Shown here one piece after another: positions 8,265-53,200 of a DNA stretch of 64,000 nt (the first letter of the stretch is position 1; the number at the start of each line of letters is the position of its first letter). Both the position numbers and the translations under genes were made by a program. The notes below the pieces were generated by a model. It had not been told where the DNA came from. It saw only the letters and a list, made by a program, of their open reading frames with translations, and made no database searches. The stretch covers positions 61,220 through 125,219 of the forward strand of contig DASZME010000083.1 in assembly GCA_035551995.1 (NCBI GenBank), written 5' to 3'. The stretch is from Tepidisphaeraceae bacterium (GTDB lineage: Bacteria; Planctomycetota; Phycisphaerae; Tepidisphaerales; Tepidisphaeraceae).

Positions 8265-8305
8265 TTAGCGGCTCCGCTTGCGGGGCATGTTTCGTAAGCG
8301 AACCC
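8265..8305. repeat. Family-B REP-like repeat, partial copy B1
   Basis: The sequence ttagcggctccgcttgcggggcatgtttcg shares the tagcggcCSCgcttgcggggcrt core with the copies at 22673, 24647 and 38764 (inverted). Confidence 0.4.
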
Positions 8306-8473
8306 TCCTTCCCTCATCTTCCCACCGCCATTTGTCTGTCACGCAACATGGTGGTATAGTCCAGTGTTACAACGATTTGCGACTTCCGACGGCCGCCGTT
8401 GGATGTATCGGCAGCTGTTGGGACGCAGTGCAAATTTTGGCTCGGAAACCGTCCAGCGATATTGTGGCGCCCG

Positions 8474-10348
8474 ATGGCTTTGGAATTGAAAGCTCCCAGT
8501 CTGGACTTTGGCGCCTTTCGGACGCAGGTGCTGGGGTCTATCGATATCGTCGAACTGATCGGCCGAACCGTCACGCTCAAACGGCGTGGAAAAAACTACG
8601 TCGGCCTATGCCCGTTCCATCAGGAAAAGACCGGCTCGTTCAACGTCGATTCCACCCGGCAGTTCTTTCACTGCTTTGGATGTAAAGCCAGCGGAAACGC
8701 CATCGATTTCGTGATGAAGCGCGACCGGCTGGAATTCATCGACGCGCTTCGGATGCTCGGCGAATCGCTCGGACTGGAATTGCCGCGCGGCGGAGGATCG
8801 AAACAAAAATCGGGCGAACGACAAGCCCTTTTCGAGATGCAATCGGCGGCGGGCGCGTACTTCGCCAGATCGCTGGAACATCCGCAGGCGGGCCAGGCGG
8901 CAAGGGAATATCTCAAAGAACGCGGGATCGAAGACGGATCGATCAAACGATTTCAGATTGGGTTTGCGGCTGACGGATGGGACGGATTGCTTCGCGGCGC
9001 GGTCGGCAGGAAATATCCGCCGGAACAGCTTGCGCTCGGCGGCCTTGTTAAAATGCGCGAGAGCGGACAGGGCGCCTATGACACGTTTCGCAATCGGCTG
9101 ATGTTCCCGATCCGCGACGACAGCGGGCGCGTAATCGCGTTTGGCGGCCGGGTGATGCCCGGATCGGCCGACCCGGCCAAGTATCTGAACAGCCCCGAAA
9201 CGCCGTTGTTTTCCAAAAGCCGATGTGTCTTTGGACTGGACCTGGCGAAACAAAAAATCGTCGAGAGCCGAACCGCGGTGGTCGTCGAGGGGTATACGGA
9301 TGTTGTCATGGCGCATCAGTTCGGCGCCAGCAACGTCGTCTCGATCCTCGGGACGGCCATGACCGAGCAGCATGTGCAGATGCTTCGGCGGTTTGCGGAT
9401 CGGATCGTGCTGCTGTTTGACGCCGACACGGCCGGCGATACCGCGGTCGACCGGGCGGTTGGGTTGTTCCTGACGCAGGAAGTGGATATTGCGGTGGCGT
9501 CGATGCCGGACGGAGTCGATCCGGACGAATATCTGCTGGCGCACGGCGCCGAAAGTTTCAACCAGTTGATCGCGGCGGGGGCGGATGCGCTGCTTTATAA
9601 GTGGAAGCAGTTGCTCCGCCGATTCAACGCCAGCGGCGACAGCCTGACCGGGCAGCAGAAGGTGGTGGAGGAATATCTGAACGTGCTGGCGGCGGCGCGC
9701 GGAAGCGGCCCGGTGGATGGGATCCGGTGGGGGATGGCTCTGACGCAGGTGAGCCGCCTGACCGAAATTCCGGTCGATCAGCTGAACCGGCGATTCAAGG
9801 CGCCAAAACAGGCGGGTCGTCGCTTATCGGCCCCCGCGTCGTCGGCTCCCGCTCAAGCGGAGTCGGCCGGCGAGCCGAATATGGGATACCCGGCGCCGCC
9901 GATGCCTCCGATACGGCGGCAGTTGACGGCGCAGGAACGGGCCGAGCGGCGGCTTTTGGGCGTGCTCTTGGTCGAGCCGGCGCGATGGCAGAATGTGCAG
10001 AAGCATGTGCATCTGGACGACTTTTTCGATCCGTTGCATCGACGGCTGGCCGAAACATACTGGACGCATCAACAGGATGAGGGCGAGCCGGTATTTAACG
10101 AGTTCCTCGGTTTGCTGAATGACGAAAATTTGCGGGAATTGGCCGTTGTCGCCGTTGAGGAAGTCGAAGCGCTGGCCGACCCGCAGGGCTTAGTTGACGC
10201 CTCGATCGGCTACTTTCAGGAGACCCGCAGGGCTTTGGAAGATCGGAAACTTCTGTCCGAAGTCCAGCGTAAGAAGCCTGGACAGGACGAAGACTTACTG
10301 AAAAAATTGCAGGAGCAAGCAAGTAAACCCAATTTGCGGCGTACTTAA
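8474..10348 (+). CDS. dnaG: DNA primase DnaG
   Basis: A CHC2 zinc finger is present (GLCPFHQEKTGSFNVDSTRQFFHCFGCKASGNAIDFV). A TOPRIM region is present (VVVEGYTDVVMAHQFG ... LLFDADTAGD). The start is placed at the in-frame ATG at 8474 (MALELKAPSLDFGAFRT), which is residue 26 of the track ORF. Confidence 0.9.
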   Translation: MALELKAPSLDFGAFRTQVLGSIDIVELIGRTVTLKRRGKNYVGLCPFHQEKTGSFNVDSTRQFFHCFGCKASGNAIDFVMKRDRLEFIDALRMLGESLGLELPRGGGSKQKSGERQALFEMQSAAGAYFARSLEHPQAGQAAREYLKERGIEDGSIKRFQIGFAADGWDGLLRGAVGRKYPPEQLALGGLVKMRESGQGAYDTFRNRLMFPIRDDSGRVIAFGGRVMPGSADPAKYLNSPETPLFSKSRCVFGLDLAKQKIVESRTAVVVEGYTDVVMAHQFGASNVVSILGTAMTEQHVQMLRRFADRIVLLFDADTAGDTAVDRAVGLFLTQEVDIAVASMPDGVDPDEYLLAHGAESFNQLIAAGADALLYKWKQLLRRFNASGDSLTGQQKVVEEYLNVLAAARGSGPVDGIRWGMALTQVSRLTEIPVDQLNRRFKAPKQAGRRLSAPASSAPAQAESAGEPNMGYPAPPMPPIRRQLTAQERAERRLLGVLLVEPARWQNVQKHVHLDDFFDPLHRRLAETYWTHQQDEGEPVFNEFLGLLNDENLRELAVVAVEEVEALADPQGLVDASIGYFQETRRALEDRKLLSEVQRKKPGQDEDLLKKLQEQASKPNLRRT

Positions 10349-10896
10349 TAGTGGTAGTTGTCGCCAATTCAATATACGAATCGTTATTGGGATCGAGCTT
10401 TGAATCAGATGTAGCATTGTCGTGCGGCCTCGTTTCCGGGCAAGTGAAAAAAACACAATTGAAGAACGGCTGTGCTACTGGTTTTTCATCGATCTTTTGG
10501 AATTGATTTGGATCTTGGGGATTCGGCTTCGCGAATTTTGACGACCCGGTTCACGGATCGAACCGGGAATTTTTCTCGATATTTTGGGGATTCGGTCACA
10601 TTGTCGCTGGCGTAGGAACGCCGCACGAGGGTTGGCTGGCCTACAATTGGCTTTGGTCGGCGTAATGCGTTAGCGCCCCCGGCGTGCTTGGCCGCCGCCG
10701 GACGGCGTTGCGAGAGCGCTCGTTGCAGGGATCGGGAATGGCCCCGAGTTCCTTGGCCCGCCTCCGCTACGCTGCCTTGGGCGGACGACAATTTCGTCCG
10801 CCGCCACCGGTTCGCTTTCATTGCGAATGCCGCTGGCAAACCCGCGGGAGTTCCGCGGTTGGCCCGCCCAGGCGCGGGAGATGGTTGCAACAGGAC

Positions 10897-12669: not shown

Positions 12670-12747
12670 TTTCGATTCGACGTTCCGTGTCCGCGCCGTC
12701 CGGCATCTGCGTCCTGCAGCGCGGGGCTCATCTTTTCGGCGCCGACG

Positions 12748-12786
12748 GCGATTGAAGGCCGACGCCACGATGGCCTTCAATCGCCC
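12748..12786 (+). terminator. Perfect 14-bp inverted repeat (stem-loop) about 80 nt downstream of rpoD; candidate terminator or regulatory hairpin
   Basis: ggcgattgaaggcc - gacgccacgat - ggccttcaatcgcc. No U-tract follows, so it is not a canonical intrinsic terminator. Confidence 0.35.
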
Positions 12787-14437: not shown

Positions 14438-15967
14438 ATGGCTATGCGTGTGACGAGCCGATTTACGTTGGCCGCTCTCTCGGCAATGTTGCTGTTGCTC
14501 GCGGCCGCATCCCCTGCCCCTTGGTCTCCGGCGGCGCCCGATAAATCGGTGGCCGTGATCCGGCTCTCCGGCGAGGTGGATGACTTCAGCCGCGATACCC
14601 TCTTTCGTCATTTCCGCGAAGCCGAGTCGGCCGGCGCCAAAACCGTCATTCTCGAAATCGACACCTACGGCGGCTTGGTCACCAGCGGGCTGGATATAAG
14701 CCGGTTCCTTCGCGGACAGAGCGAAATTCACGTCATTGCGTTTATCGACAACAAAGCCATCTCGGCCGGTGCGCTCGTCGCCCTGGCATGCGATGAAATC
14801 GTCATGGCGCCCGGGGCGGTTCTTGGCGATTGCGCGCCGATCGTGCTGGATCAGACCGGCAATCTCGCCCCGCTGCCCGCCGCCGAGCGGGCGAAGATGC
14901 AATCGCCGATCTTGCGCGATTTTGAAGATAGCGCTCGCCGCGACGGGTACAACCCGCTGCTGGTCGATGCGATGGTGAAGGTGGAGACATCGGTGTATTT
15001 GATCGCCGACGCGCAGGGGCATGAGCGAATTGTCGACGAAGCGGACTATAAAAAATTGACCGCCGCCGGCGAATGGAAAGACGCTTCGGGCGTGACCAAT
15101 CCGATCGATGGGCCGGAAACGTTGCTGACCGTCGGGCCCGACCTGGCCCATCGTCTGGGCCTTTCCAAGAGCATCGCGCGAAACGCGCAGGAATTAGCCG
15201 CCGCCCGCGGGCTGACGATCGTCGCGGACCTGCGGCCGGGTTTCGGCGATCATCTGGTCGAATCGCTCAACAGCCATGGCGGGCGTTTCCTGTTGATGGT
15301 CGTCTTCATGCTGAGTCTGTACATTTGCCTGCACGCCCCCGGCCACGGGGCGGCCGAGGCGGTGGCGGTGGTATCGCTCGGATTGTTGGCGGGGGTGCCG
15401 ATGCTGACGGGGTATGCGCAATGGTGGGAACTGGGAATCATCTTCGTCGGACTGGGATTGTGCGCCTTTGAGCTGCTGGTTTTTCCCGGTCATGGACTAT
15501 CGCTTGGCGTTGGACTGGTGATGGTGCTGTTTGGATTGCTGATGACTTTTGTCACCAAGGACGCCGGGCCGGGATGGTTCCCGACGTCTCATCAAGCGTG
15601 GCATCAGATGCGCACCGGCCTTGCGATCATGATCGGCGCGGGCGTGGTGTCGGTGGTCGGCGCGGCGATCCTTCGGCCATTTCTCCCGAAGTTGCCGTTG
15701 TTTCGCAGATTTATTTTGACTGAAACCAACGATGGCCCGGTGCGTACCGCCGGCACGCCGTTGCTGGCCGGGGAAGACGTATGGCCTTTCGTGGGTACCG
15801 TCGGCGTCGCGGTGACCGATCTTAAGCCGGGAGGAATGGTGCGATTTCCGTTCGCCGACGACACCCGAAACGCTCCGGTGGTCAGCGCCAGCGGCTTTGC
15901 CGGCGAAGGCGCGAAAGTGGTCGTGCAGGAGGCACGGGGAAATCATATTGTGGTTCGCGCGGTCTAA
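14438..15967 (+). CDS. nfeD: NfeD-family membrane-bound ClpP-class serine protease (long form). It has an N-terminal protease domain, transmembrane helices and a C-terminal OB-fold.
   Basis: A signal or anchor is present (MAMRVTSRFTLAALSAMLLLLAAA). The ClpP-like fold is present (VILEIDTYGGLVTSGLDISRFLRG...NKAISAGALVALACDEIVMAPGAVLG). Multiple transmembrane helices lie in the middle of the protein. The C-terminal beta-barrel region reads GTVGVAVTDLKPGGMVRF. The gene lies immediately upstream of floA, which is the conserved nfeD-flotillin operon arrangement. Confidence 0.8.
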   Translation: MAMRVTSRFTLAALSAMLLLLAAASPAPWSPAAPDKSVAVIRLSGEVDDFSRDTLFRHFREAESAGAKTVILEIDTYGGLVTSGLDISRFLRGQSEIHVIAFIDNKAISAGALVALACDEIVMAPGAVLGDCAPIVLDQTGNLAPLPAAERAKMQSPILRDFEDSARRDGYNPLLVDAMVKVETSVYLIADAQGHERIVDEADYKKLTAAGEWKDASGVTNPIDGPETLLTVGPDLAHRLGLSKSIARNAQELAAARGLTIVADLRPGFGDHLVESLNSHGGRFLLMVVFMLSLYICLHAPGHGAAEAVAVVSLGLLAGVPMLTGYAQWWELGIIFVGLGLCAFELLVFPGHGLSLGVGLVMVLFGLLMTFVTKDAGPGWFPTSHQAWHQMRTGLAIMIGAGVVSVVGAAILRPFLPKLPLFRRFILTETNDGPVRTAGTPLLAGEDVWPFVGTVGVAVTDLKPGGMVRFPFADDTRNAPVVSASGFAGEGAKVVVQEARGNHIVVRAV

Positions 15968-15970
15968 AGA

Positions 15971-16150
15971 ACCTTGCGCGATCATCGGCGTTTTTTTTCA
16001 TACCCTCGCCCGGTACGCCGGGAGAGGGAAGGGTGAGGGTTTCTTGGAAGGGCCGGATTTTATCGTGACTTGCATCTTTCCAAAAAACGCTCTCCGCAAC
16101 CCTCTCGCGGATTACCGGACGAGGGAGCAGAACGCGTAATCGCGCAAGGT
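15971..16150. mobile_element. Family-A MITE-like element, copy A1. It has terminal inverted repeats (ccttgcgcgatYRYcg) and two internal G/C hairpins.
   Basis: The left end is accttgcgcgatcatcggcg+T8. The first hairpin is ccctcgcccgg-tac-gccgggagaggg, followed by gtgagggtttctt. The second hairpin is ccctctcgcgg-attac-cggacgaggg. The right end is cgcgtaatcgcgcaaggt. The same architecture recurs at 51757 (inverted) and 53229. The element starts 4 nt after the nfeD stop. Confidence 0.55.
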
Positions 16151-16293
16151 TAATTGGCGCCGAAAGAGCGGTGAGCGCCCGAACGAAGACGCGCTTGTGC
16201 GCCCTCCGTCATCAACCGTGTTTCTCGACGGCCTGATAGCCGCGGGCGCAAGCCCGATCGCCCGGTATTTTTCGATACAATAAAGGAACTCAC

Positions 16294-19932: not shown

Positions 19933-19934
19933 AT

Positions 19935-22284: not shown

Positions 22285-22372
22285 GGTTGAAATCTTATCC
22301 TTGCATGTCGTTTGAAGGTCGTTAAAATAATTGCTCGCATTACAAAACGATTGAAGTTGACATGGAGGTCAA

Positions 22373-22618
22373 TTGGAGAAACTGCATTTCATGGAGGATC
22401 CAATGCGCCGTCCACACGTCGATGATGTCGTGCGTCTCATTCGCGATATACCCGAATTGTCGCTGACGCGCGGCGACCTGGGAATCGTGCGAAGCACGTG
22501 GTTCGCCCCCACGGTCGCTTACGAAGTGGAATTTAACCGGCCTGGCCTTAGCTACCAGACCCGTGCATTGCTGCTGGAAGAGCAGGTTCAGATCGACGCA
22601 AGGCCCGCTCCCGAATGA
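22373..22618 (+). CDS. DUF4926-family small protein
   Basis: The sequence VVRLIRDIPELSLTRGDLGIVRSTWFAPTVAYEVEFNRPG matches the DUF4926 pattern, a hydrophobic beta-hairpin around RGDxGTVV...YEVEF. The start may be the ATG at 22391 (MEDPMRR). Confidence 0.55.
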   Translation: MEKLHFMEDPMRRPHVDDVVRLIRDIPELSLTRGDLGIVRSTWFAPTVAYEVEFNRPGLSYQTRALLLEEQVQIDARPAPE

Positions 22619-22672
22619 ACTGATCGAGCGCGTAAATTTTGAGAGCGACGTTGAGGTCGCCAGAGCGTTCCC

Positions 22673-22742
22673 GCGTTTAGCGGCCGCGCTTGCGGGGCGT
22701 GTGTCGCGATCGAAGTTCGCGCCACCAACATGGAAAATGCGC
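22673..22742. repeat. Family-B REP-like repeat, copy B2 (about 70 bp)
   Basis: The sequence is gcgtttagcggccgcgcttgcggggcgtgtgtcgcgatcgaagttcgcgccaccaacatggaaaatgcgc. It aligns nearly base-for-base with B3 at 24647 and with inverted B4 at 38764. Confidence 0.5.
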
Positions 22743-22991
22743 CCGGGTTCGTAATCGGACGAGCATTCCACTCAGTCGAGTCGGCAAATGCGTCGATAAC
22801 TCATGAGACCGGCGTTTTCGCGCTTGAGAAAATTGCGTTCCTCGTGAACGCAATTCATTAGCCGCGGGCGAAAGTCCCGGTTTTTTCGTGATCGCACAGC
22901 GCCGAACATCTGTCGCTCCGCGGCTGTAATATCATTTGCATCGTCCGTCGCTCCTTGTTTGGGCGTCGTTTTCTGACCTTCCGGCAAACGT

Positions 22992-24302
22992 ATGCACCTT
23001 GGATTGCTCTGCCAAATCCCAACGCGCGTCTTCTCGGCTGACCAAGTCCTGGCCAACTATATTTACGTTTTTTTCACGGCCTTTCTGGTGTCGTTCTTCT
23101 GTACGCCGGCCATGCGTGTCGTGGCGATCCATTTCGGGATGGTCGATCGCCCCGATCTGGTTCGCAAAATACATCGGGCGCCGGTGGCGTATCTGGGCGG
23201 AGTGGCGGTGTTCTTCGCGTGGCTCTGCGGGTTGTTCGTGAGCCAGTTCATGATGCTGCATCGCATCGATCCCGGCTGGCCAGTCGATCGTGGCGTCGCT
23301 CATCCGATTGTACCGTTCAGCATCGTGATGGGAGCGGTCGTCATCGTCACCCTCGGTTTGGTGGACGATGCACGCGGCCTCAAACCCGGCGTGAAAATCT
23401 CCGGGCAGATCCTGGCGGCTATTTTTCTTCTTGGCGACGGCATCGGCATCGACGCCACCCGCCCGCTGCTTCAAGCCTTCAGCGGCCATGTAACCCACTT
23501 CGTCGGCTACGCTGGAAACCCGAGTTTGCTGAGTCCCGACTGGCTGGTATACGTCACCAGCGGGTTGGTGGTGATCGCCATCGTGGTCGGATGCTGCAAC
23601 GCGTCCAACCTCATGGACGGTCTTGACGGACTTTGCGGCGGAGTGACCGCCATTATCGCCCTGGGATTTTTGATCGTCGCCACCCAATTGGCCATGGTCG
23701 GCGGCGGTATCAACACCAATCGCGACGCCATTCGCGTGATAATGGCGCTGGCGCTTCTCGGCGCCGTTCTCGGATTTATCCCGTATAACTTCAATCCCGC
23801 CAGCATCTTTATGGGCGATACCGGAAGCATGTTTCTAGGGTTCGCCTGTGCCGCGATGATGATCGAAATGTCCCACGAGCATTCCAAATGGTTCCTGGCG
23901 TCGATGGTGATGTTCGCGTTGCCGATTCTAGATACGTCGCTAGCGTTCGCGCGCCGATATCTTAACGGACGGCCCCTGTTCAGCGCCGATCGGCAACATA
24001 TTCACCACCAGCTACTGGCCCGCGGGCTAACGATCAATCAAGCCGTGCTGGCGAGCTATGCGCTGGCCATCGTTTTTGGCGTGCTCGGAACATCCATGCT
24101 GTTTATGCGGACGCGCTATGCCATCGCGTTATATCTGGTGATCTTCGGTTACCTGATCGTGATGGCCTATAAGATCGGCATGGTTCACGAACGCGTTCAG
24201 AAGTCCGACGCATCGAGCATAAAAGACCAGTCGGCCGAGTCGTTCAGGCCCGACATTCGCCCGGCGACCACGCTGGAAGTCGGCGCACTGAAATTGAACT
24301 GA
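22992..24302 (+). CDS. Polyprenyl-phosphate sugar-1-phosphate transferase of the MraY/WecA family (GT4 phospho-N-acetylhexosamine transferase)
   Basis: The protein is polytopic. Family motifs are present: NASNLMDGLDGLCGG and IFMGDTGSMFLGF. The cytoplasmic loop reads ILDTSLAFARRYLNGRPLFSADRQHIHHQL. Whether it is a wecA or an mraY paralogue cannot be decided from sequence alone. Confidence 0.8.
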   Translation: MHLGLLCQIPTRVFSADQVLANYIYVFFTAFLVSFFCTPAMRVVAIHFGMVDRPDLVRKIHRAPVAYLGGVAVFFAWLCGLFVSQFMMLHRIDPGWPVDRGVAHPIVPFSIVMGAVVIVTLGLVDDARGLKPGVKISGQILAAIFLLGDGIGIDATRPLLQAFSGHVTHFVGYAGNPSLLSPDWLVYVTSGLVVIAIVVGCCNASNLMDGLDGLCGGVTAIIALGFLIVATQLAMVGGGINTNRDAIRVIMALALLGAVLGFIPYNFNPASIFMGDTGSMFLGFACAAMMIEMSHEHSKWFLASMVMFALPILDTSLAFARRYLNGRPLFSADRQHIHHQLLARGLTINQAVLASYALAIVFGVLGTSMLFMRTRYAIALYLVIFGYLIVMAYKIGMVHERVQKSDASSIKDQSAESFRPDIRPATTLEVGALKLN

Positions 24303-24646
24303 AGAACGGATATCCCCAGCGCGGCCTCCGACCGCAACCAAGGGCCCGAACCACGGATTACACGGATTGACATGGATGGGAAAGAAAGTTCGTCCTTTTC
24401 ACCATGAAATTCACTGCAATCCGAGGGCACTGTTCCAAGGCCTGAAAAAATCTTGTCGCCACACAAGGAAATGAGCGGATTGTATTACGAAGGGCACGAA
24501 GAAGAGGTGATTTTGAAAAAGCGCGTCTCTTGATGTATCCTGTCGTTCTTCCATTCTTTCAAGGACGTAACCTCTTGCGACTGCCAAATGGGCAATAATT
24601 GTGGTGGGCTCATCGAACGTTCTTCGGGTTGCCGGAGCGTTTGTGC

Positions 24647-24714
24647 GTTTAGCGGCCCCGCTTGCGGGGCGTCTTTCGCGACCCAAGTTCGCGACGCCCA
24701 CATGAAAAATACGT
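24647..24714. repeat. Family-B REP-like repeat, copy B3
   Basis: The sequence is gcgtttgtgcgtttagcggccccgcttgcggggcgtctttcgcgacccaagttcgcgacgcccacatgaaaaatacg. It has the same orientation as B2, so the wecA-like gene is flanked by direct copies. Confidence 0.5.
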
Positions 24715-24959
24715 TGAAACCCGATCGGTCGATTCTATTGCCCGGCCTTCGGCGAACCGATTCTACATTCAGGCGGCGTCGTTAAATCGTGCGCCGCTAA
24801 AATTCAGCGTCGTAAAATGGCGCTAGACGGCACAATCGCCGTACCCGCGACTTTCGGCGTCGATGCCGCTATTTTATGGGACAGTGAATTGGAACCGTTG
24901 GCTCGGCGAGTAAATTCGCCATTGCCCCGCCAACCTCGACCGAACGGAGATGTAATTAC

Positions 24960-26315
24960 ATGGACGTGACAGTGATCGGCTGCGGCTACGTTGGACTCGT
25001 CACCGGCACCTGCCTGGCCAGCATCGGCCATACGGTCCGCGGCGTGGAAAAAGACCTCAAGAAACTCAAGACGCTTCAAGACGGCCATTGCCCCATCTTC
25101 GAGCCCGGCTTGCAGGAGTTGATGCAGGAGCATTATGCCGCCGGACAATTGCAATTCACCGACAACGTGAAGATGGCCGTCAAGGACGCCGAGGTGGTTT
25201 ATCTCGCCGTCGGCACCCCCTCCAAGGCCGACGGCACGGTCGATATGAGCTATCTCGAAGCGGCCGGCAAGGAAGTGTGCGACGCCCTGGCCGCCAATGA
25301 GAGCGATTACCTGGTGACGATCGTCGTCAAATCGACCGTTCCCGCCGGGACCAATCGCAAGCTTTATAAATTCCTGAAGGAGCAGACCAAGGCGCACGTG
25401 CAGGTCGTTTCCAACCCCGAGTTTTTGCGCGAAGGGTCGGCGGTCCAGGATTTCCTCGAGCCCGACCGCATCGTCATCGGCGGCGAAAGTCCCGAAGCCT
25501 TCCGCATGATGCGCCGCCTGTACGATCCGATCGTGAAGCGAGAAGAAGCCTTCATGACGATGAACTGGGAATCGGCCGAGCTGACCAAGTACGCCGCCAA
25601 TTCGATGCTGGCCGCCCGCATTTCGTTCATGAACGAAATGACGATCCTGTGCGAATATTACAACGCCGACGTCGAGGACATCCGCAAAGGCATCGGCTCG
25701 GATTTCCGAATCGGCCCGGCCTTCCTGAAAGCCGGCTGCGGCTACGGCGGATCGTGCTTCCCCAAAGACGTGGCCGCGATGGAGCACATCTCCAAAACCG
25801 CCGGCCACGAAAGCCTTTTCGTGCATGCTATTCAGGAAACCAACCGCAATCAGAAGCGACGTTTCGCCGAAAAGATCGCCGCGAAACTCGGCCGTCCGAT
25901 CAATGGCGCCACGATTGCCGTCTGGGGCCTGGCGTTCAAAGCCGACACGGATGACGTTCGTGAATCCGCCGCCATCGACGTGATCCGCTATCTGGTCGAT
26001 CATGGCGCCCGCGTCCGCGCCCACGATTTCAAGGCGACGGAGAACATGAAGATGTTGTTCAACGACGACAGCATCGAATGGTGCCAAGACCCGGTGTCGG
26101 CGGCCGTCGGTTCCGATGCGGTGGCGTTGATTACCGATTGGCCGCAGTACACGACGCTGCCGTTCCGCAAGATCGCGGCGACGATGAATCAGCCCTTGAT
26201 TTTCGACGGGCGGAACTGTCTGCATCGCGACGTGATGCGGGAGAGCGGGTTTCAGTATTATCCGATCGGAAGGCCGTGCGTGGAGAATGCGCTGAGGCTA
26301 AAGACGCGGATTTGA
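24960..26315 (+). CDS. ugd: UDP-glucose 6-dehydrogenase (UDP-glucose/GDP-mannose dehydrogenase family)
   Basis: The N-terminal Rossmann fold is present (MDVTVIGCGYVGLVTGTCLA). The catalytic Cys region is present (GYGGSCFPKDVAAM). The family length is typical at 451 aa. Confidence 0.9.
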   Translation: MDVTVIGCGYVGLVTGTCLASIGHTVRGVEKDLKKLKTLQDGHCPIFEPGLQELMQEHYAAGQLQFTDNVKMAVKDAEVVYLAVGTPSKADGTVDMSYLEAAGKEVCDALAANESDYLVTIVVKSTVPAGTNRKLYKFLKEQTKAHVQVVSNPEFLREGSAVQDFLEPDRIVIGGESPEAFRMMRRLYDPIVKREEAFMTMNWESAELTKYAANSMLAARISFMNEMTILCEYYNADVEDIRKGIGSDFRIGPAFLKAGCGYGGSCFPKDVAAMEHISKTAGHESLFVHAIQETNRNQKRRFAEKIAAKLGRPINGATIAVWGLAFKADTDDVRESAAIDVIRYLVDHGARVRAHDFKATENMKMLFNDDSIEWCQDPVSAAVGSDAVALITDWPQYTTLPFRKIAATMNQPLIFDGRNCLHRDVMRESGFQYYPIGRPCVENALRLKTRI

Positions 26316-29684: not shown

Positions 29685-30017
29685 GTTGGGGTCGAAAAAG
29701 CTTCTCGGTCTGGGCCAAAAATTCGACCTCGAATCTCGTCTGCCTGTGCCCGGCGCTGGCCTTGGGTTCCACGAGATCGACCGCGCGGCCGTTGATCGCT
29801 TGCCAGTCGCTGATCTTCTGAGCGTCGCGGCGTCAATCTTGCGGAGTTGTGACAACGCTTCGGCTTTCGAAACGTGTTGATACACGGCTACGGTCAAGTC
29901 GATCACGCCAAGACGCGGGATATCGTCCAGAGTGAGTTGCCGATCCTTCGCGGCGAACTGGGTGAGTTGCTTCGGTGAGGAAGCCGCTCGCGGGGAATGC
30001 AAGGGAGAGCGAGGCGA

Positions 30018-30086
30018 CCGGCATAGTCCGCGGCCAGCGCACTGGTACAAGAATCGGCATCGGCGATCAGGTGATGGTCTACATCG
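30018..30086. repeat. 69-bp duplicate of the rnr 3' coding segment (29374..29442), about 85% identical, lying in the downstream intergenic region
   Basis: The copy inside the gene is ccggcgtagtccgcggccagcgcaccggcacaaaaatcggcatcggggatcaggtgatggtctacatcg. The downstream copy is ccggcatagtccgcggccagcgcactggtacaagaatcggcatcggcgatcaggtgatggtctacatcg. Confidence 0.6.
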
Positions 30087-34487: not shown

Positions 34488-34749
34488 CGTCGAACAATTA
34501 CCTTTCCGACGCGCCGGCAAGCGGGGCGGCGCGTGAATCACGCGCGCTTCGCGCGCGTCGTATCGATGCCCACGCGTCGCTCCCGCGATCGCGCCGCCGG
34601 AGGGTACCGTCCGCGTGGCGTCGAAGATAGTCACGCGATGCGATCCCGTTCGCTTTGACGTCCATTTTCGCATATAATTTCACGCTCTGGCAATGGGCCC
34701 GGCGACTGTCACGAAAACAGCGCGGCGGGCCGTTTTTCGCGGAATTATT

Positions 34750-37467
34750 ATGGCTGAACCAACGCCGACTCCACCCTTTCAGGAACGCATCGAAGACCTC
34801 AGCATCGAACAGGAGCTTGGGGATTCTTATCTGACCTATGCCATGAGCACCATTATGGACCGGGCGCTGCCCGACGTTCGCGATGGGCTGAAGCCGTCCC
34901 AGCGCCGAATATTGGTGGCGATGAACGATCTGAATCTGCGGCCGGGCTCGAAGCACCTCAAGTGCGCCAAGATCGCGGGCAATACCTCCGGCGATTATCA
35001 CCCGCACGGCGAATCGATCGTCTACCCGACGCTCGTGCGTCTCGTGCAGCCGTGGAGCTTGCGCTATCCGCTCATCGACGGCCAGGGCAACTTCGGCAGC
35101 ACCGACGGCGATCCACCCGCCGCCATGCGTTATACCGAGGCCCGCCCAACGAGCGTCGAGCAGGAAATGATGGTCGACTTGAATCTCGACACGGTCGATT
35201 ATCAACCCAACTACGATGATCGCCTGCTCGAGCCGACCGTGCTGCCCGGCAAGTTCCCCAACCTGCTGGTGAACGGATCGACCGGCATCGCCGTCGGCAT
35301 GGCGTGCAATCTGCTTCCGCATAATCTGCGGGAAATTTGCGACGCCATCGTCAAGGTGATCGACAATCCGGACGTCTCGCTGATGGACTTGATGGAAAGC
35401 GTTCCCGGTCCCGATTTCCCCACCGGCGGCATTATCTGCGGCCGCGACGGCATCCTCGAAGGCTACAAATCCGGCCGCGGGCGCATTACCCTTCGCGCCA
35501 AAATTCACGTCGAAGAACAAAAGGGAACCAAGACGCTGGTCGTCATCGACGAGATTCCGTACGGCGTCATTCGTAAATCGATTCAGATCGCCGTCGCCGA
35601 GTGGAAGAACAAGGACCAGTTCAAGGAAGTATCGGCAATCAACGATGAATCGGGCCGGCATCATGCCGTCCGCATCGTGCTCGATTTAAAGCGCGACGCC
35701 GACCCGGACGTGGTGATCGCGCAGCTCTATCAATACACGCAATGCCAGATCACGGTGCCGATGATCAACATCGCGCTGGTGAATCGCCAGCCGCGAACGA
35801 TGGGATTGAAGGAATTGATCCAGCACTTCATCGCCCATCGCGAGGTCGTGATCACCCGGCGGACCAAGTTCCTGCTGCGCCGGGCGCAGCAGCGCGAGCA
35901 TATCCTGGAAGGGTTGATCTTCGCCGTCTGCGATATCGACGAAGTCATTCGGCTCATTCGCTCGAGCAAGACTCGCGAAGAGGCGATCGAAAAACTGATC
36001 CAGCAGGGATTCCGGATCGATCCCAACAGCGCGCTTCGGGAAAAACTGCCGGAACGGATCATCTTTCGGCATCCAAAGATTTTCGCGGTCGAGCCGGGCG
36101 AACCGATTTCGCCGTTCCGCGTCTCGCGCGCGCAGGCCGAGGCGATCGGAAGATTGCAGCTGATTCAGTTGGTCGGCCTGGAGATCGATAAACTCGTCAA
36201 CGAATACAAGACGGTGGCGGAAGAAATTGAAGAGTACGAAAAAATTCTCGGCGATCATGCTTACCTGATGGATCTGATCCGCGAAGACGTTTTCGAGATG
36301 AAGGAAAAATACGGCGACGCCCGCCGAACCGAAATCTCCGGCTCCGTCACCGACATGAACATGGAAGACCTGATCGCCAAGGAAGACGTGGTGGTCACGG
36401 TAAGTCACGGCGGATACGTCAAGCGCCTCACGACCGACACCTACCGCAGCCAGGGCCGGGGCGGTCGCGGCATCAAGGGAACCGAATCAAAGGAAGGGGA
36501 TTTCGTCGAGCATCTTTTCATCGCCAATACGCACGATTACCTGCTGTTCTTCACCAACCAGGGCCGGGTGTACGAACGGCGGGTTTATCATGTGCCGGAA
36601 ATGAGCCGGACAAGCCAGGGCCGATCGATCGCCAACCTGCTTTCGTTTCAGCCCAATGAAAAAGTGGCCAACGTGCTGGCGATCAAGGATTTCACCAGCG
36701 GCGAACATTTCCTTTTGTTCGCGACGGCCAAGGGCACCGTGAAGAAAACAGCCCTCAGCGCCTACGCCAACATCCGCCAGAACGGCATCATCGCCATCGG
36801 CATGGAAGAGGGGGACACACTGATCGACGTCGCCGTCACCAGCGGCAAGGACCACGTGATCCTCGGCACCAAGAGCGGCCTTGCGATCCGTTTCGAGGAA
36901 TCCGACGTCCGCGCCATGGGCCGCCCCGCGGGCGGCGTCACCGGCGCCCGCTTCAAGCGCGAGGGCGACGCCGTCGTCTCCATGCTCATCGTTCATCAGG
37001 GCGACAACGAAATGTACAAGGTTTTAACCGCCTGCGTGAACGGTTACGGCAAGCGCACGCCGCTCGACGCATACCCGGTCAAAGGCCGCGGCACCCGCGG
37101 CGTCATCGATATCCTCACCACCGAACGTAACGGCGACGTGGTCGGCATGAAGTTGATCAAGGATTCCGATGAAGTCATGTTCATCACGGAAAAGGGAATC
37201 CTGATGCGCACGCCCGTCGGCGAAATCCGCGAGACCGACCGCAACACCCAAGGCGTCCGCCTGATGCGGCTGGATGAAGGCGATCGCCTGGTTGCGATGG
37301 CCTGCGTGGCGGCCGAAGAACCCAAGCCCGCCGAGGGCGGCGACGGCCAAGCCCCGACGGTGGTCAGCACCGAGCAGACGCTGATTGAAGAACCGCAAAT
37401 TCCGGAGGATGCCGAGCGCGGAGCCGATGGGGAAGATTCCAACGATGACGAGGCGGCGCCGGATTGA
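34750..37467 (+). CDS. gyrA: DNA gyrase subunit A
   Basis: The N-terminus reads [42 protein letters not shown]. The active-site Tyr region is present (AAMRYTEAR). The GyrA box is present ([10 protein letters not shown]). Six C-terminal beta-pinwheel blades are present, with an acidic tail. The start is the ATG at 34750 (MAEPTPTPP). Confidence 0.9.
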
Positions 37468-37605: not shown

Positions 37606-38742
37606 ATGTCAGACCCGCGGCGCATCGTCGAAAACATCCGCGTCTTCATGACGTCCGGGGCCGGCGCGGCGGCCGCGCCGATCGCGGCGGTGGCGGTCGA
37701 TTATGCGGAACTCTGCCGCGACGCCAACCTGCGCCTTCAACGCTGCGCCGAATTTCTTCATGAAGGATTGGTCGGCGAAGCGGTCGAATTCGCGGCGGTT
37801 AGGCCGCCGCTGCTGGAGCTAATCGCGACGCTTGATTTTCAGGAGGTTCCCGCCTGGGAGCAAGCCTGCGCTCAGATGGGCATGGCGCGGGCCGCGCGAT
37901 TGGAGCTGAATACCGCGATCATGTTAAACGCCGCCCGCGAGCGCCACGAGCCCATTAAGGAACTGCTCGGAAGGTATCGCTATCTTGCTTTGGCCCGGGC
38001 GCCGCTGACCGAACGTCTTACGACGGCTTGGCGCCTCGCCGCGGCCGATCCGTCCAGCGTCATCTGGCGCCAGGAAGCCGAGGAGCTTGAAAAATCCCGC
38101 CTGATCCAGCTTCGCGTCGAAGCGTCGGCCGCCATGGAAGCCAACGACGTGCAGCAGATGGATAAGCTTCTGCTGGAGCTTGGCGTGGGGCGCTGGCAGG
38201 CGTTTGCCGCCTTGGAATTGAAGGAGACTTTGCATCGCGCCGTGACGGGCGTGCGCTACGCCGGCGCCATTTCGCGGCTGAACGCGACCGTGCCGAAAGT
38301 TCGCGAGGCATTCGCGGCCAAGTCCCTGGAACAGTGCCAGGCCGTTTTCGCGCAGTGGGGAAAAATCGTCAAGGAATCGCGCGTCGTCGTGCCGGTCGAT
38401 CTGCGCCAGCACATCCTGCCGCTGGCGCATTGGATCGACGAGGAGGAGGAACGACGCGCCCACGAACGCAAATTCCGCTCGGCATGCAGCCAGCTTCTCG
38501 ACGCGGTCAAGCGGCAGGCGCCCGTCGAGGAAATAAAGGAATGTTATCGCGCGGTCGCCGCGTTTGAATCGCCGATACCCCAGGACGTCGCCGCGGCCTA
38601 CGACCACGGCGTCGAGACGGCGCGCCTGGCGAAAGCAAAGGAACAAAAAAAACAATACGCGTTGGCCGCCGCGCTGGTGGGAGCCATCGTGGCGGCGCTG
38701 GGCACGCTGACCTTCGTTATTTTCAACGGCGGAAAGCGGTAA
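37606..38742 (+). CDS. Hypothetical alpha-helical protein with a C-terminal transmembrane anchor
   Basis: The ORF is 378 aa. It is helical and Ala/Leu/Arg-rich but compositionally protein-like. The C-terminal transmembrane helix reads YALAAALVGAIVAALGTLTFVIF. No family was recognised. Confidence 0.45.
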   Translation: MSDPRRIVENIRVFMTSGAGAAAAPIAAVAVDYAELCRDANLRLQRCAEFLHEGLVGEAVEFAAVRPPLLELIATLDFQEVPAWEQACAQMGMARAARLELNTAIMLNAARERHEPIKELLGRYRYLALARAPLTERLTTAWRLAAADPSSVIWRQEAEELEKSRLIQLRVEASAAMEANDVQQMDKLLLELGVGRWQAFAALELKETLHRAVTGVRYAGAISRLNATVPKVREAFAAKSLEQCQAVFAQWGKIVKESRVVVPVDLRQHILPLAHWIDEEEERRAHERKFRSACSQLLDAVKRQAPVEEIKECYRAVAAFESPIPQDVAAAYDHGVETARLAKAKEQKKQYALAAALVGAIVAALGTLTFVIFNGGKR

Positions 38743-38763
38743 GCGCCGGACGGCCGAGACCTA

Positions 38764-38843
38764 GAGCGTTTCTCATGCTGGTGAAGCGACCTTGCGTCGC
38801 GAAAAACGCCCCGCAAGCGGGGCCGCTAAACACAGAAACGCGC
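38764..38843. repeat. Family-B REP-like repeat, copy B4 (inverted orientation)
   Basis: The reverse complement reads gcgtttctgtgtttagcggccccgcttgcggggcgtttttcgcgacgcaaggtcgcttcaccagcatgagaaacgc. It matches B2 and B3 including the distal CAtg[ar]aaa motif. Confidence 0.45.
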
Positions 38844-38949
38844 GAGCAACCTGACAACCGCTCTAATAAAAACGATTCACCTGTGGATTAGGTAGCGATG
38901 CTCGCCGCGTGACTATTTTTATGACCCGCCACGTCTTAGAATTGCGACG

Positions 38950-49959: not shown

Positions 49960-50147
49960 CAGTACAAGTATACGCGATGAGGGGCGCTCCTGCTTCCTTT
50001 AGCCGCCGTGATGACACTGCCGGGACCTGAACGGACACGGCCTCTTTTCCCTCGCGGCGATCGTCGCTCCAACGATCGGCCTTGCCGTGGCGTATTTACA
50101 AATGCGTCGCAGCATTTCGCCAGCGGTTTTCACGGAAAGGTCGTGCG

Positions 50148-51713: not shown

Positions 51714-51756
51714 CCTGGGCGATTCTCTTGCATGCGCTGGTCTGGATATGAATGAA

Positions 51757-51935
51757 CTTGCGCGATTACGCGCTCTACTCCCTCGCCCGGTAATCCGGGA
51801 GAGAGGGTTGGGGTGAGGGTTTTTTGAAATGATGCGAGCCGTATAAAATGCGCGAGCTATCAAAGAAACCCTCACCCTGTTCTCTCCCGGAGTGCCGGGT
51901 GAGGGTTTAAGAGAAACGCGCGTGATCGCGCAAGG
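51757..51935. mobile_element. Family-A MITE-like element, copy A2 (inverted relative to A1 and A3)
   Basis: The left end is cttgcgcgattacgcgc. The first hairpin is ctccctcgcccgg-taat-ccgggagagagg. A gtgagggtttttt...aaaccctcaccc internal palindrome follows. The second hairpin is tctcccgg-agtg-ccgggtgaggg. The right end is gcgcgtgatcgcgcaagg. Its reverse complement aligns with the A3 right half. Confidence 0.55.
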
Positions 51936-51984
51936 TTATTTTAGATTAAATGTCGATCGTCTGTCTATTAAAGGAGAAGTAAGC

Positions 51985-52971
51985 GTGCGAATTCCGGCTC
52001 TACTTGCAGTCGTGGCTCTCTGTTCGATCCATTCCGTTTTGGCCGCGGGCGCGGCGGATCAATCACAGGCGATCAAAATCGTCCAGGCCGATACGCATCT
52101 CGACGTCACCATCGGCGGCAAGCCGTTCACGTCCTACTGGTTCGGCAAACGAGATGACCGGCTCTATGTCCGTCCATTTTTCTTCCCCGTCCTCGCGCCC
52201 GGCGACGTGGCGGTGACCAGCGATCAATATTCGCTGAAGGAACGCGAACCCAAGACCGACCACCCGCATCATCAATCGCTGTGGGTGGCGCAGGGGGACG
52301 TGAATGGCGTCGATCACTGGTCGCTCGGGAAAGACGGCAAAGGAACCCTGTCGGCCAAGCAACGGCATGTTAAATTCGCCTCGGTCGGCGAGGATCGTTT
52401 CGCCGAAAATCTCTTGTGGGACGACAACGCCGGGAAACCGATGCTCGATGAAGTGCGAACGGTGAAGTTCGTCGGGTATCCCGATGGAAGCCGCGGCATC
52501 GATATTACGTCGGCCTTCACGCCGGCGGAGGGGTCGGTGACGTTTGGAGATACAAAGGAGGCTGGTTTGATGGCGGTTCGATTGGCGACCGCGATCGCCA
52601 AACATCCGACGATTACACAGTCCAGCGGAAAAGGCGGGGAAGGCGCCGCCGGCGAAAAGCAGACCTGGGGCCAGCCGGCCGACTGGTGTGATGAATCGGG
52701 CGAGATCGACGGCAAGCCGTTTGGCGTGGCGATTTTCGATTTCCCGGCCAACCCGCGTCATCCGGCCCGCTGGCATGTGCGAGCCTATGGATTGATGTCA
52801 TCCAACATTTTTGGCTTGAGCGATTTCGATAAGAAAAATCCGAAGCATTCGGGGGATCTGGTGATCGAGAAAGGGACGACGGTTACGTTTCGCCATCGAG
52901 CGGTGATCCATGCGGGGATGGCCGTGGATGCGAAACTGGGAGAGAAGTATAAGGAATTTGCCGGTGAGTAG
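51985..52971 (+). CDS. PmoA-family (DUF6807) exported protein
   Basis: The GTG at 51985 gives a signal peptide (VRIPALLAVVALCSIHSVLAAGA). The segment YVRPFFFPVLAPGDVAVTSDQYSLKEREPKTDHPHHQSLW is typical of the misnamed methane-oxygenase PmoA family common in Planctomycetota. The earlier part of the track ORF lies inside MITE A2. Confidence 0.5.
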   Translation: MRIPALLAVVALCSIHSVLAAGAADQSQAIKIVQADTHLDVTIGGKPFTSYWFGKRDDRLYVRPFFFPVLAPGDVAVTSDQYSLKEREPKTDHPHHQSLWVAQGDVNGVDHWSLGKDGKGTLSAKQRHVKFASVGEDRFAENLLWDDNAGKPMLDEVRTVKFVGYPDGSRGIDITSAFTPAEGSVTFGDTKEAGLMAVRLATAIAKHPTITQSSGKGGEGAAGEKQTWGQPADWCDESGEIDGKPFGVAIFDFPANPRHPARWHVRAYGLMSSNIFGLSDFDKKNPKHSGDLVIEKGTTVTFRHRAVIHAGMAVDAKLGEKYKEFAGE

Positions 52972-53139
52972 ATGAGGACGTAAGACTATGCGACGCCGCG
53001 GGATTCTGTGCATGGCTATCAGGCAGATGTCGCGGTCGATTGGATAGTCGCGGGGCGGAAGCGCGGTTGCGTTTGATTTCAGTTGAGTCTACCAATAACA
53101 CTACTGTTCTCATCAGAAGGATTTCTGTTGTTGATGGAG

Positions 53140-53200
53140 CGAGGCTTCAGCGCGAGAAGCGCCTCACAAGCGGGGCCGCTATTATAGACGCAGGAACGCC
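53140..53200. repeat. Degenerate family-B repeat, copy B5 (inverted), adjacent to MITE A3
   Basis: The reverse complement contains tagcggccccgcttgtgaggcgcttctcgcg, which is the B core with several substitutions. Confidence 0.3.

What the first reader, a model, noticed from the sequence alone, without database searches (positions are those of the whole stretch)
8265..53200. Family-B approximately 70-bp REP-like repeat with a CCCCGC-TTG-CGGGG hairpin core; two copies flank the wecA-like gene as direct repeats
Copies at 22673-22742, 24647-24714 and 38764-38843 (inverted) align nearly base for base: gcgtttNtgNgtttagcggccccgcttgcggggcgtNtttcgcgacNcaagKtcgcNNcNccaNcatgRaaaaYRcg. Shorter or degenerate copies lie at 8265-8305 and 53140-53200. 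All are intergenic. B2 and B3 lie in the same orientation on either side of the WecA/MraY-family transferase gene (22992-24302). This could mark a recombination-prone cassette, or it could be a shared small structured RNA or regulatory motif. The conserved distal Catg(a/g)aaaat box downstream of the hairpin is not obviously explained by a simple REP function.
Basis: seen in the sequence. Interest (0 to 1): 0.55.

Follow-up and report, generated by a model that had tools for sequence, protein, structure and literature searches.

The report
Dispersed hairpin repeat of Tepidisphaerales genomes
The repeat is real: it is a small, non-coding, REP/MITE-like repeat found between genes in a whole order of planctomycete bacteria, so it is an undescribed member of an ordinary class, not a wecA gene cassette or a demonstrable small RNA.

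Summary
The window holds exactly five copies, none expected by chance, and all are intergenic. The unit is about 112 nt, not about 70.

Its anatomy is:
- a left box;
- a tag, TTAGCGG;
- a 6-bp G+C hairpin with a CTTG loop;
- a second small hairpin (TCGCGA..TCGCGA);
- the distal ACATGAAAAATGC box.

The distal box is an imperfect complement of the left box, which explains the "unexplained" box.

The same 22–25-nt tag-plus-hairpin recurs in at least 15 Tepidisphaerales/Tepidisphaeraceae MAGs. There it occurs in three forms:
- alone;
- as inverted, REPIN-like doublets;
- inside genome-specific units of about 100–112 nt with terminal inverted repeats.

Diverged copies keep the stem through compensatory changes. 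Copies lie mostly between co-directional or convergent genes, near 3' ends. Short-read contigs break at the core.

Four orthologous mutY–wecA–UDP-glucose-dehydrogenase loci in relatives lack the element. B2 and B3 are therefore lineage-specific insertions. They are 72% identical with a longest exact run of 14 nt, so they do not form a cassette.

I found no RNA covariation, no Rfam match, no terminator tail, and no viral or plasmid copies. No RAYT or other transposase was found in the roughly 0.7 Mb available, so the mobilising enzyme is unknown.

Verdict: a new member of the REP/MITE kind, of modest interest.

The parts
8262..8302 (+). B1: truncated copy with the tag, the core hairpin (stem-loop 8271-8286, one C>T giving a T.G pair) and the second hairpin (TTCG-TAAG-CGAA). 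Both boxes are missing. It lies about 170 nt upstream of dnaG.
   Evidence: model positions 41-78; source gene calls: intergenic
22637..22749 (+). B2: full-length unit of about 112 nt, between a DUF4926 gene (ends 22618) and the WecA/MraY-family gene (starts 22992). Core hairpin at 22683-22698 with one stem mismatch (CCGCG).
   Evidence: (E=6e-32)
24610..24720 (+). B3: full-length unit between the WecA-like gene (ends 24302) and UDP-glucose dehydrogenase (starts 24960). Left box 24635-24649, tag 24650-24654, core hairpin 24655-24670 (loop CTTG at 24661-24664), second hairpin 24676-24694, distal box 24700-24713.
   Evidence: (E=6e-33)
38757..38868 (-). B4: full-length unit, antisense to both neighbouring genes (378-aa gene ending at 38742, GH5 gene starting at 38959). 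Core hairpin 38823-38808. It is the only window copy with a clear terminal inverted repeat: TAGAGCGGTTGTCAGGTTG against TAGAGCGTTTCTCATGCTG, 15 of 19 matching.
   Evidence: (5 of 2000 shuffles reach the score)
53115..53226 (-). B5: full-length but decayed unit between convergent genes (DUF6807 gene ending at 52971, minus-strand gene 53459-54793). Core hairpin 53176-53161 has two uncompensated stem changes. It abuts a copy of an unrelated repeat family (53224-53460).
   Evidence: E=2e-12

Best explanation
The five sequences are old, partly decayed copies of a non-autonomous dispersed repeat. It is REP/REPIN- or MITE-like and is specific to Tepidisphaerales (Planctomycetota).

The constrained module is a 22-25-nt single-strand 'tag plus hairpin': (G)TT-TAGCGG, then a 6-bp G+C stem, then the loop CTTG. 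In this genome the module sits inside an imperfect palindrome of about 112 nt made of a left box, the core hairpin, a second hairpin and a right box. In other genomes it occurs alone, as inverted doublets, or inside other lineage-specific units with terminal inverted repeats.

Inferred mechanism (not shown): copies are spread in trans by an enzyme encoded elsewhere in the genome. That enzyme would recognise the invariant unpaired tag and the loop of the folded hairpin, as REP-associated tyrosine transposases recognise GTAG plus hairpin. Copies then survive mainly where they do little harm, downstream of genes. There the hairpin may incidentally end up in 3' untranslated regions.

The two copies around the wecA-like gene are independent insertions into an ancestral gene order. 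They are not a functional cassette.
For: Shown:
- Five copies in the window against none expected by chance, and all are intergenic.
These are overwhelmingly from at least 15 Tepidisphaerales/Tepidisphaeraceae MAGs, including MAGs labelled 'Phycisphaerales'.
- In those genomes the same core sits inside several different ~100-112-nt units flanked by inverted repeats.
- It also occurs as inverted doublets that fold into long hairpins, in L007, L017, L029, L056, L071 and L074.
- Secondary copies that the search pattern did not select keep the stem through double changes. Examples are GCGTCG/CGACGC in L062, CCTCG/CGAGG in L029, CCCCAC/GTGGGG in L029, L006 and L024, and GCTTCG/CGAAGC in L017. The unpaired tag is largely retained in these copies and the loop stays close to CTTG (CCTG in L062, CTCG in one L017 arm).
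- Gene context of 68 cores, using my own crude gene calls: 25 co-directional, 12 convergent, 6 divergent. In 21 of 25 co-directional cases the core is nearer the upstream gene's 3' end (p=0.0009). This matches the published REP distribution (PMC3733652).
- Density is about 37 extra copies per Mb in related loci and 78 per Mb in the window.
- Short-read contigs end exactly at the core in L038, L053 and L092.
- Orthologous wecA loci in four relatives lack the element. L003 and L039, from two different species, share one at the same site.
- Window copies are 63-74% identical to each other.
Against: - No transposase of any kind was found. There is no RAYT-type motif and no Y1-transposase similarity in the roughly 0.7 Mb held.
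- No protein family recurs next to the cores.
- The tag is TTAG(C), not the GTAG or CGTC that defines the published REP super-families.
- A terminal inverted repeat is statistically clear in only one of the five window-type copies.
- No target-site duplication could be shown. The TA..TA flanks in several subfamilies are ambiguous.
- No exact empty-site versus filled-site pair was obtained. The nearest ortholog is only 84% identical at the protein level, so insertion rather than loss rests on parsimony.
- The invariance of the core across L001-L065 is partly built in by the exact search pattern.
Confidence: 0.7

Rival explanations
1. The hairpin is a host-useful RNA element in 3' untranslated regions. 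It would protect mRNA 3' ends or attenuate or terminate transcription, and it is kept because of that role, however it first spread.
For: Cores lie closer to the upstream gene's 3' end in 21 of 25 co-directional cases, often 20-60 nt after the stop codon. G(CUUG)C is a stable RNA tetraloop context (general knowledge). Compensatory changes keep the stem. Sense orientation is somewhat commoner than antisense, 17 against 8.
Against: No conserved T/U run follows the stem. B2 and B3 are not terminator-like, and only B4 is, on a strand with no gene upstream. The orientation bias is not significant (p=0.11). B2 follows a small gene but sits in the leader region of wecA, and six cores lie between divergent genes. 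The strict conservation of the unpaired tag TTAGCGG and of the loop letters is not needed for a plain stabilising hairpin. Close relatives manage without the element at the same loci.
Confidence: 0.2
2. The ~112-nt unit is a family of small structured RNAs, or a cis-regulatory RNA motif, expressed from many loci.
For: The unit can be drawn as a Y-shaped fold in which a closing stem encloses two hairpins. 79.5% of cells pair, against 30-54% in slid controls. Several closing-stem pairs are G.U on the given strand.
Against: Folding energies do not differ from shuffles on either strand. Rfam gives no match even at E<=5. The structure tested was derived from one of the five sequences, and only 2 pairs change on both sides. 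In the 16-copy subfamily RNAalifold finds no compensatory pair, and mutations simply break pairs. The unit occurs in either orientation relative to neighbouring genes, and no promoter-like site accompanies it. Flanks outside the core differ completely between genomes.
Confidence: 0.07
3. B2 and B3 are direct repeats that define a mobile or recombination-prone cassette carrying the wecA-like gene. The cassette would be integron- or pdif-like, or would be deleted or inverted by homologous recombination.
For: The two copies flank the gene in the same orientation, 1972 nt apart.
Against: The gene order mutY, wecA, UDP-glucose dehydrogenase is kept in relatives that lack both repeats. B2 and B3 are 72% identical with a longest exact run of 14 nt, which is too short for efficient homologous recombination (general knowledge of minimal processing segments). 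Other copies lie 14 kb apart and in both orientations. GTTTAGC and GTTAGCG do not fit the attC core GTTRRRY (read directly from the sequence).
Confidence: 0.03
4. The core is a binding site for a host DNA-binding protein, such as a nucleoid, gyrase-type or other chromosome-organising factor. That site would have been picked up by several unrelated small mobile elements.
For: The same 22-25-nt sequence, including its unpaired and loop positions, appears inside at least four differently flanked unit types and also alone. REPs in enterobacteria are known to bind gyrase, IHF and Pol I (cited in PMC2817692 abstract and general knowledge).
Against: The unit types share one architecture: 33-43 nt, then the core, then a second hairpin, then 40-50 nt. 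Common descent with fast-evolving flanks therefore explains them more simply than repeated capture. Compensatory stem changes point to a folded single strand rather than a duplex site. No candidate protein is known.
Confidence: 0.1

Closest known systems
REP / REPIN elements (GTAG- and CGTC-tagged repetitive extragenic palindromes; Nunvar 2010, Bertels & Rainey 2011, Di Nocera 2013)
   Same: A G+C-rich hairpin of 20-40 nt with a conserved short unpaired tag at its 5' foot. Intergenic, mainly between co-directional and convergent genes and downstream of coding regions. Tens to hundreds of copies per genome by extrapolation. Singletons plus inverted doublets that fold into long hairpins. Restricted to one lineage and inherited at orthologous sites in sister species. 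Compensatory stem changes.
   Different: The tag is TTAG(C), not GTAG or CGTC. No RAYT gene has been found. In this genome and several others the hairpin is not free-standing or doubled but sits off-centre inside a longer ~100-112-nt imperfect palindrome.
Bacterial MITEs and long imperfect palindromes (ERIC/IRU, Correia, Nezha, the Stenotrophomonas and Pseudomonas 'REP joined to an unrelated stem-loop' TIR repeats of Di Nocera 2013)
   Same: Non-coding units of 100-130 nt with imperfect terminal inverted repeats. They lie between genes in either orientation, and each genome has its own subfamilies. The Pseudomonas case of a degenerate REP joined to an unrelated stem-loop is the nearest architectural parallel.
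   Different: No autonomous insertion sequence with matching ends was found. No target-site duplication could be shown. Terminal repeats are clear in the JBBRYX, MFD and SPRUCE subfamilies but in only one window copy. The most conserved part is internal (the core), not the termini.
Intrinsic terminators / 3' stabilising hairpins
   Same: A stable G+C hairpin with a tetraloop, usually a few tens of nt after a stop codon.
   Different: No conserved T run follows it. It occurs in both orientations and also between divergent genes. It carries a conserved unpaired tag.

Membership tests
REP (repetitive extragenic palindrome) | Short (20-40 nt) imperfect palindrome able to form a G+C-rich stem-loop | tested here: met
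   A 6-bp stem GCCCCG/CGGGGC with loop CTTG inside a conserved 22-25-mer. The stem is kept by compensatory changes in diverged copies.
REP (repetitive extragenic palindrome) | Conserved GTAG (or CGTC) tetranucleotide at one end | tested here: not met
   The conserved tag is (G/C)(T/G/C)T-TAGCGG. The base before TAG is T in nearly all copies, giving TTAG. The 3' end is CGCG, CGTN or CGAG, which is variable (definition from PMC3733652).
REP (repetitive extragenic palindrome) | High copy number (>100 per genome), extragenic, mostly downstream of genes | tested here: inconclusive
   The extragenic position and 3'-proximal bias are met. No whole genome could be counted.
REPIN-RAYT system | Two REPs in inverted orientation separated by a short spacer | tested here: inconclusive
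   Present in six loci of other genomes: L007, L017, L029, L056, L071 and L074. Absent from the window. The right half of the window unit is not a decayed second core.
REPIN-RAYT system | A single-copy RAYT (Y1/HUH transposase) gene flanked by the repeats | not testable with these tools
MITE | Terminal inverted repeats | tested here: inconclusive
   Clear in the JBBRYX, MFD and SPRUCE subfamilies and in B4 (5 of 2000 shuffles). Not significant in B2, B3, B5 or L015. An inner left box / distal box complementarity is present in all five.
MITE | Target-site duplication | tested here: inconclusive
   TA..TA borders appear in four subfamilies, but these could equally be the first bases of the inverted repeats. 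No empty site was available.
MITE | A related autonomous insertion sequence with the same ends | tested here: inconclusive
   No autonomous insertion sequence with matching ends was seen, but only about 0.7 Mb was held and no whole genome could be searched. In SPRUCE 272 a longer repeat shares the core-to-right-end part and runs off contig ends. Its putative ORF start has no relative in the protein database. No transposase-like family recurs beside the cores.
Known RNA family (Rfam 15) | Match to a curated covariance model | tested here: not met
   No match at gathering score in the whole window. No match at E<=5 in 22300-25000.
Intrinsic terminator | G+C hairpin followed directly by a T run, oriented with the upstream gene | tested here: not met
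   B2 and B3 are not detected. Only B4 is, on the strand opposite to both neighbours. The bases after the stem vary between copies.

The most novel reading that the evidence does not exclude
The invariant unpaired tag (TTAGCGG) plus the CTTG-looped hairpin is the recognition site of a still unidentified trans-acting enzyme that is vertically inherited across Tepidisphaerales. That would make it an independent REPIN-RAYT-like partnership in Planctomycetota with a non-GTAG tag, or one based on a different enzyme class. Its substrate is modular: the same recognition hairpin is carried alone, doubled, or inside several fast-diverging palindromic carriers.
Probability: 0.25. Interest if true: 0.55.

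Novelty: new member of a known kind. Interest (0 to 1): 0.35.

Why it matters
Small dispersed repeats have mostly been characterised in Proteobacteria and Cyanobacteria. This is a well-defined family for an order of soil and peat planctomycetes known almost only from metagenome-assembled genomes.

Practical consequences:
- The 23-nt core breaks short-read assemblies at a predictable sequence.
- It could serve as a lineage marker.
- It gives a concrete handle (tag plus hairpin) for finding the enzyme that spreads it.

For annotating this window, the intergenic repeats next to wecA, dnaG, the GH5 gene and the DUF6807 gene should not be read as regulatory signals of those genes.

Tried and rejected
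- **RAYT or Y1 transposase.** This is a weak negative.
- **Recurrent neighbouring protein.** Clustering 528 ORFs within 600 nt of cores found only orthologous pairs and no transposase.
- **IS5-like transposase start in the SPRUCE 272 long repeat.** This was my guess from 'LPDEVWAAFES'. I dropped it.
- **More copies of the window subfamily.** The metagenome scan with GCTTGCGGGGCGNNTNTCGCGA returned mostly unrelated hits, plus two doublets and one core. It did not return the source contig itself. The only full-length relative is L015.
- **Extending the contig.** The window is one end of the record, and the other side is a 9252-aa gene. One look-up failed because of the start codon.
- **Window unit as a decayed inverted doublet.** The right half shows no significant similarity to a reversed core.
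- **Outer terminal inverted repeat.** It is significant only in B4.
- **Structured RNA.** Single-sequence folds, Rfam and RNAalifold on 16 copies were all negative.
- **Terminator reading.** Rejected because and the variable 3' tail.
- **Phage or plasmid origin.** No core in IMG/VR and no plasmid match.
- **Integron attC reading.** Rejected on sequence, because GTTTAGC and GTTAGCG do not fit GTTRRRY, and because the copies are scattered in both orientations. I did not look for intI.
- **Literature.** No paper in the library describes repeats of Tepidisphaerales.


Full report

Yes. The 23-mer TTAGCGGCCCCGCTTGCGGGGCG, allowing up to three mismatches, occurs five times in the window, at 8265(+), 22677(+), 24649(+), 38829(-) and 53182(-). 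None of 100 dinucleotide-preserving shuffles gave any match.

A profile built from the three best copies recovers the same five sites and nothing else in the window. That search also shows the conserved unit is longer than reported, about 112 nt:
- B2 is 22637-22749.
- B3 is 24610-24720.
- B4 is 38868-38757 on the minus strand.
- B5 is 53226-53115 on the minus strand. It is full-length but decayed.
- B1 (8262-8302) retains only the core and the next hairpin.

Over the whole unit the copies are 63-74% identical. The core is far better conserved than the rest.

**2. Where the window comes from, and gene context**

The WecA-like protein matches exactly a protein annotated 'MAG TPA: MraY family glycosyltransferase [Tepidisphaeraceae bacterium]'. 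The window is bases 1-64000, reversed, of JGI metagenome contig Ga0376674_0000128, which is 136,711 nt long.

From the source's own gene calls and Pfam:
- B1 lies about 170 nt upstream of dnaG.
- B2 lies between a small DUF4926 gene and the glycosyltransferase-4 (WecA/MraY) gene, downstream of a divergent mutY.
- B3 lies between that gene and UDP-glucose dehydrogenase.
- B4 lies antisense between a 378-aa gene and a GH5 gene.
- B5 lies between convergent genes.

All five are intergenic. There is no rule of orientation relative to the neighbouring genes.

**3. Anatomy**

Aligning the four full-length copies plus one relative (L015) gives this order:
- a left box, GAGCGTTYCYGYGTT;
- the tag TAGCGG;
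- a 6-bp stem GCCCCG/CGGGGC around the loop CTTG;
- a second hairpin built on TCGCGA..TCGCGA;
- the distal box ACATGAAAAATGC.

With that closing stem drawn, 73% of its cells pair and 79.5% of the whole structure pairs. Controls with the partner slid by 1-3 columns give 30-54%. This test has a bias, because I derived the structure from B4.

An additional outer terminal inverted repeat is clear in B4 only: TAGAGCGGTTGTCAGGTTG against TAGAGCGTTTCTCATGCTG, with 5 of 2000 shuffles reaching the score. It is not significant in the other copies.

**4. Relatives elsewhere**

About 55 of these come from at least 15 MAGs labelled Tepidisphaerales, Tepidisphaeraceae or 'Phycisphaerales'. The rest are isolated matches in unrelated bacteria.

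In the planctomycete loci, the three bases before the tag and the G after the stem were not part of the pattern, yet they are also conserved. Beyond that the flanks differ. Three arrangements occur:
- **Core alone.**
- **Inverted doublets.** Tags face outward with a 13-30-nt spacer, and the doublet folds into a hairpin of -48 to -82 kcal/mol (-47 for the variant doublet at L017 3300). These are in L007, L017, L029, L056, L071 and L074.
- **Core inside genome-specific units of about 100-112 nt flanked by inverted repeats.** One example is ATACGGATTTCACTTAATTCCTGCGCC..core..GGCGCGAGAATTAAACAGAATCCGTAT, in about 19 copies of MAG JBBRYX. Another is CTAAATAGCAGACCGCGATTC..core..GAATCACGGTCCCCCATTTAG in the MFD MAGs. 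A third is ATACGCATCGTGATTA..core..CGATCATTCACGAACCGTAT in SPRUCE 272 and MFD01188.

All these unit types share one layout: 33-43 nt, then the core, then a second hairpin, then 40-50 nt. I therefore read them as diverged descendants of one element, not as repeated captures of the core.

The window's own subfamily has one full-length relative, L015. A metagenome scan aimed at this subfamily found no more.

**5. Is the hairpin under selection?**

The exact search pattern forces the core to look invariant in the seeded copies. I therefore looked at the other copies that happen to lie in the same loci: 46 of 82 sites within 6 mismatches differ from the consensus, against 1 such site in shuffled sequence.

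Several of these keep a perfect stem through changes on both sides:
- GCGTCG/CGACGC in L062;
- CCTCG/CGAGG in L029;
- CCCCAC/GTGGGG in L029, L006 and L024;
- GCTTCG/CGAAGC in L017.

The unpaired tag and the loop are largely kept in these copies. The tag is intact in L062 and in the L017 doublet arms, and altered at one or two positions in L029 and in L006/L024. The loop is CTTG, CCTG or CTCG.

So a folded single strand with specific unpaired letters is what is conserved. That pattern is what one expects for a site read by a protein on single-stranded nucleic acid. It does not by itself say whether the strand is DNA or RNA.

**6. Signs of a multicopy, mobile-type element**

- **Density.** Excluding the seeded hit, related loci carry about 37 further copies per Mb. 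The window carries 78 per Mb. Extrapolated, that is some hundreds per genome.
- **Assembly breaks.** Short-read contigs end exactly at the core. L038 and L053 do so. So does L092, a contig from another sample that is 100% identical to the window and stops at the first base of the B4 core.
- **Gene context.** For 68 cores, with a crude GC3-based gene finder, 25 lie between co-directional genes, 12 between convergent genes and 6 between divergent genes. In 21 of 25 co-directional cases the core is nearer the upstream gene's 3' end (p=0.0009). This is the distribution reported for REPs (PMC3733652).
- **Absence from phage and plasmid collections.** The core is absent from IMG/VR, and the unit is absent from PLSDB plasmids.

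**7. The wecA 'cassette'**

I fetched orthologous loci from four relatives whose WecA-like proteins are 84, 75, 74 and 73% identical. L085 and L088 have mutY upstream. L084 and L085 have UDP-glucose dehydrogenase directly downstream.

None of them contains the element at nhmmer E<=10. Their intergenic regions are 110-380 nt, against 658 and 708 nt in the window. Alignment with the closest locus places B2 and B3 inside window-specific extra sequence.

B2 and B3 are 72% identical, with a longest exact run of 14 nt. The gene order is therefore ancestral. The two repeats are later, independent arrivals, and they are poor substrates for homologous recombination.

Conversely, L003 and L039, from two different species, share a copy at the same site. 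Copies can therefore persist through speciation.

**8. Is it a structured RNA or a terminator?**

- Folding energies of the three best copies, on either strand, are within 1.6 sd of shuffles.
- Rfam has nothing at gathering score in the window, and nothing at E<=5 around B2 and B3.
- For the 16-copy JBBRYX subfamily, RNAalifold gives a covariation term of +0.68 kcal/mol, which is unfavourable. No pair there is kept by a double change.
- No T run follows the stem except in B4, where the strand is wrong for either neighbouring gene.

I therefore do not support the small-RNA or terminator readings. The position near 3' ends leaves room for an incidental effect on mRNA 3' ends.

**9. What moves it?**

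This is unknown. No RAYT-type motif and no Y1-transposase similarity occurs in the roughly 0.7 Mb I hold. No protein family recurs beside the cores.

In SPRUCE 272, five contigs (L025, L027, L052, L062, and L039 with only 22 nt) begin or end with an identical sequence that runs, in the longest case, at least 123 nt into the core. This suggests a longer repeat that shares the core-to-right-end part. My guess that it starts an IS5-like transposase found no support.

TA..TA borders in several subfamilies could be a target duplication, or they could simply be the ends of the inverted repeats.

**10. Comparison with what is known**

The element works most like REP/REPIN sequences. It has a tag plus a G+C hairpin. 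It occurs as singlets and inverted doublets. It sits in 3'-proximal intergenic positions, is confined to one lineage, and shows compensatory stem changes.

It fails one defining feature, because the tag is TTAG rather than GTAG or CGTC (PMC3733652). A second defining feature, an associated RAYT gene, could not be tested. I therefore do not file it as a member of the published REP super-families.

Its ~100-112-nt palindromic forms resemble bacterial MITEs and ERIC-like elements. They also resemble the Pseudomonas repeats in which a degenerate REP is joined to an unrelated stem-loop (PMC3733652). However, neither a partner insertion sequence nor a target duplication was shown.

No paper in the library describes repeats of this order.

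**11. Verdict**

This is a real, lineage-wide, REP/MITE-like dispersed repeat. The window holds five old copies. The REP-like label is reasonable in the sense of how the element works. The cassette and small-RNA ideas are not supported.

It is a new member of a known kind, of modest interest. The open question is which enzyme reads the invariant tag and hairpin.

Noticed in passing
window 15966-16155, 51757-51945, 53220-53460: A second, unrelated repeat family built on CCCTCGCCCGGTAnnCCGGGAGAGGG hairpins and CTTGCGCGATnACGCGC modules. Copies are up to 96% complementary and cluster in three intergenic regions. One copy directly abuts B5, so different repeat families pile up in the same spacer.
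   Followed up: no
window 24835-24962 versus L084 2055-2185: The roughly 120 nt upstream of the UDP-glucose dehydrogenase start are nearly identical between the window and an 84%-identity relative (CCCGCGACTTTCGGCG.CGATGCCGCTATTTTATGGGACAGTGAATTGGA ... CCAACCTCGACCGAACGGAGATGTAATTACATG). The rest of the spacer is unalignable. This is a candidate conserved leader or promoter. More distant relatives keep only the GGAGATGTAA.T.CATG part.
   Followed up: partly
L063 7500-7520 (MAG MFD04434.bin.2.6): In another genome a solo core lies about 90 nt upstream of the ortholog of the same UDP-glucose dehydrogenase gene, in the same orientation as B3. Closer relatives lack a core there. This may be coincidence or a favoured landing region.
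   Followed up: partly
L025, L027, L052, L062, L039 (MAG SPRUCE 272), contig ends: Five contigs begin or end with an identical sequence that runs (86-123 nt in four of them, 22 nt in L039) into the core and then shares the right end of the local MITE-like unit. This implies a longer multicopy element that broke the assembly. Its nature is unknown.
   Followed up: partly
window 1-7089 (continues beyond the window start): This is the 3' part of a gene called as 9252 aa with no Pfam hit on record. It is internally repetitive, with periods of about 400 and 870 nt (families D4 and D6).
   Followed up: no
window 29372-29442 and 30016-30086: A 71-nt direct repeat at 93% identity, 644 nt apart, around the end of the RNase II/R-type gene (27294-29684) and the following region.
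   Followed up: no
L029 1795-1877 and 4777-4862; window 34693-37467: In MAG SMAG_U6180 two inverted doublets of the core bracket gyrA. In the window, B4 lies one gene downstream of gyrA. This is probably chance, but REPs are known gyrase-binding sites in enterobacteria.
   Followed up: no
L015 (contig CAVPKU010000024.1): The only full-length relative of the window's subfamily sits on a contig binned as 'uncultured Acidobacteriaceae'. This could be a mis-binned planctomycete contig or a transfer. I did not examine it.
   Followed up: no
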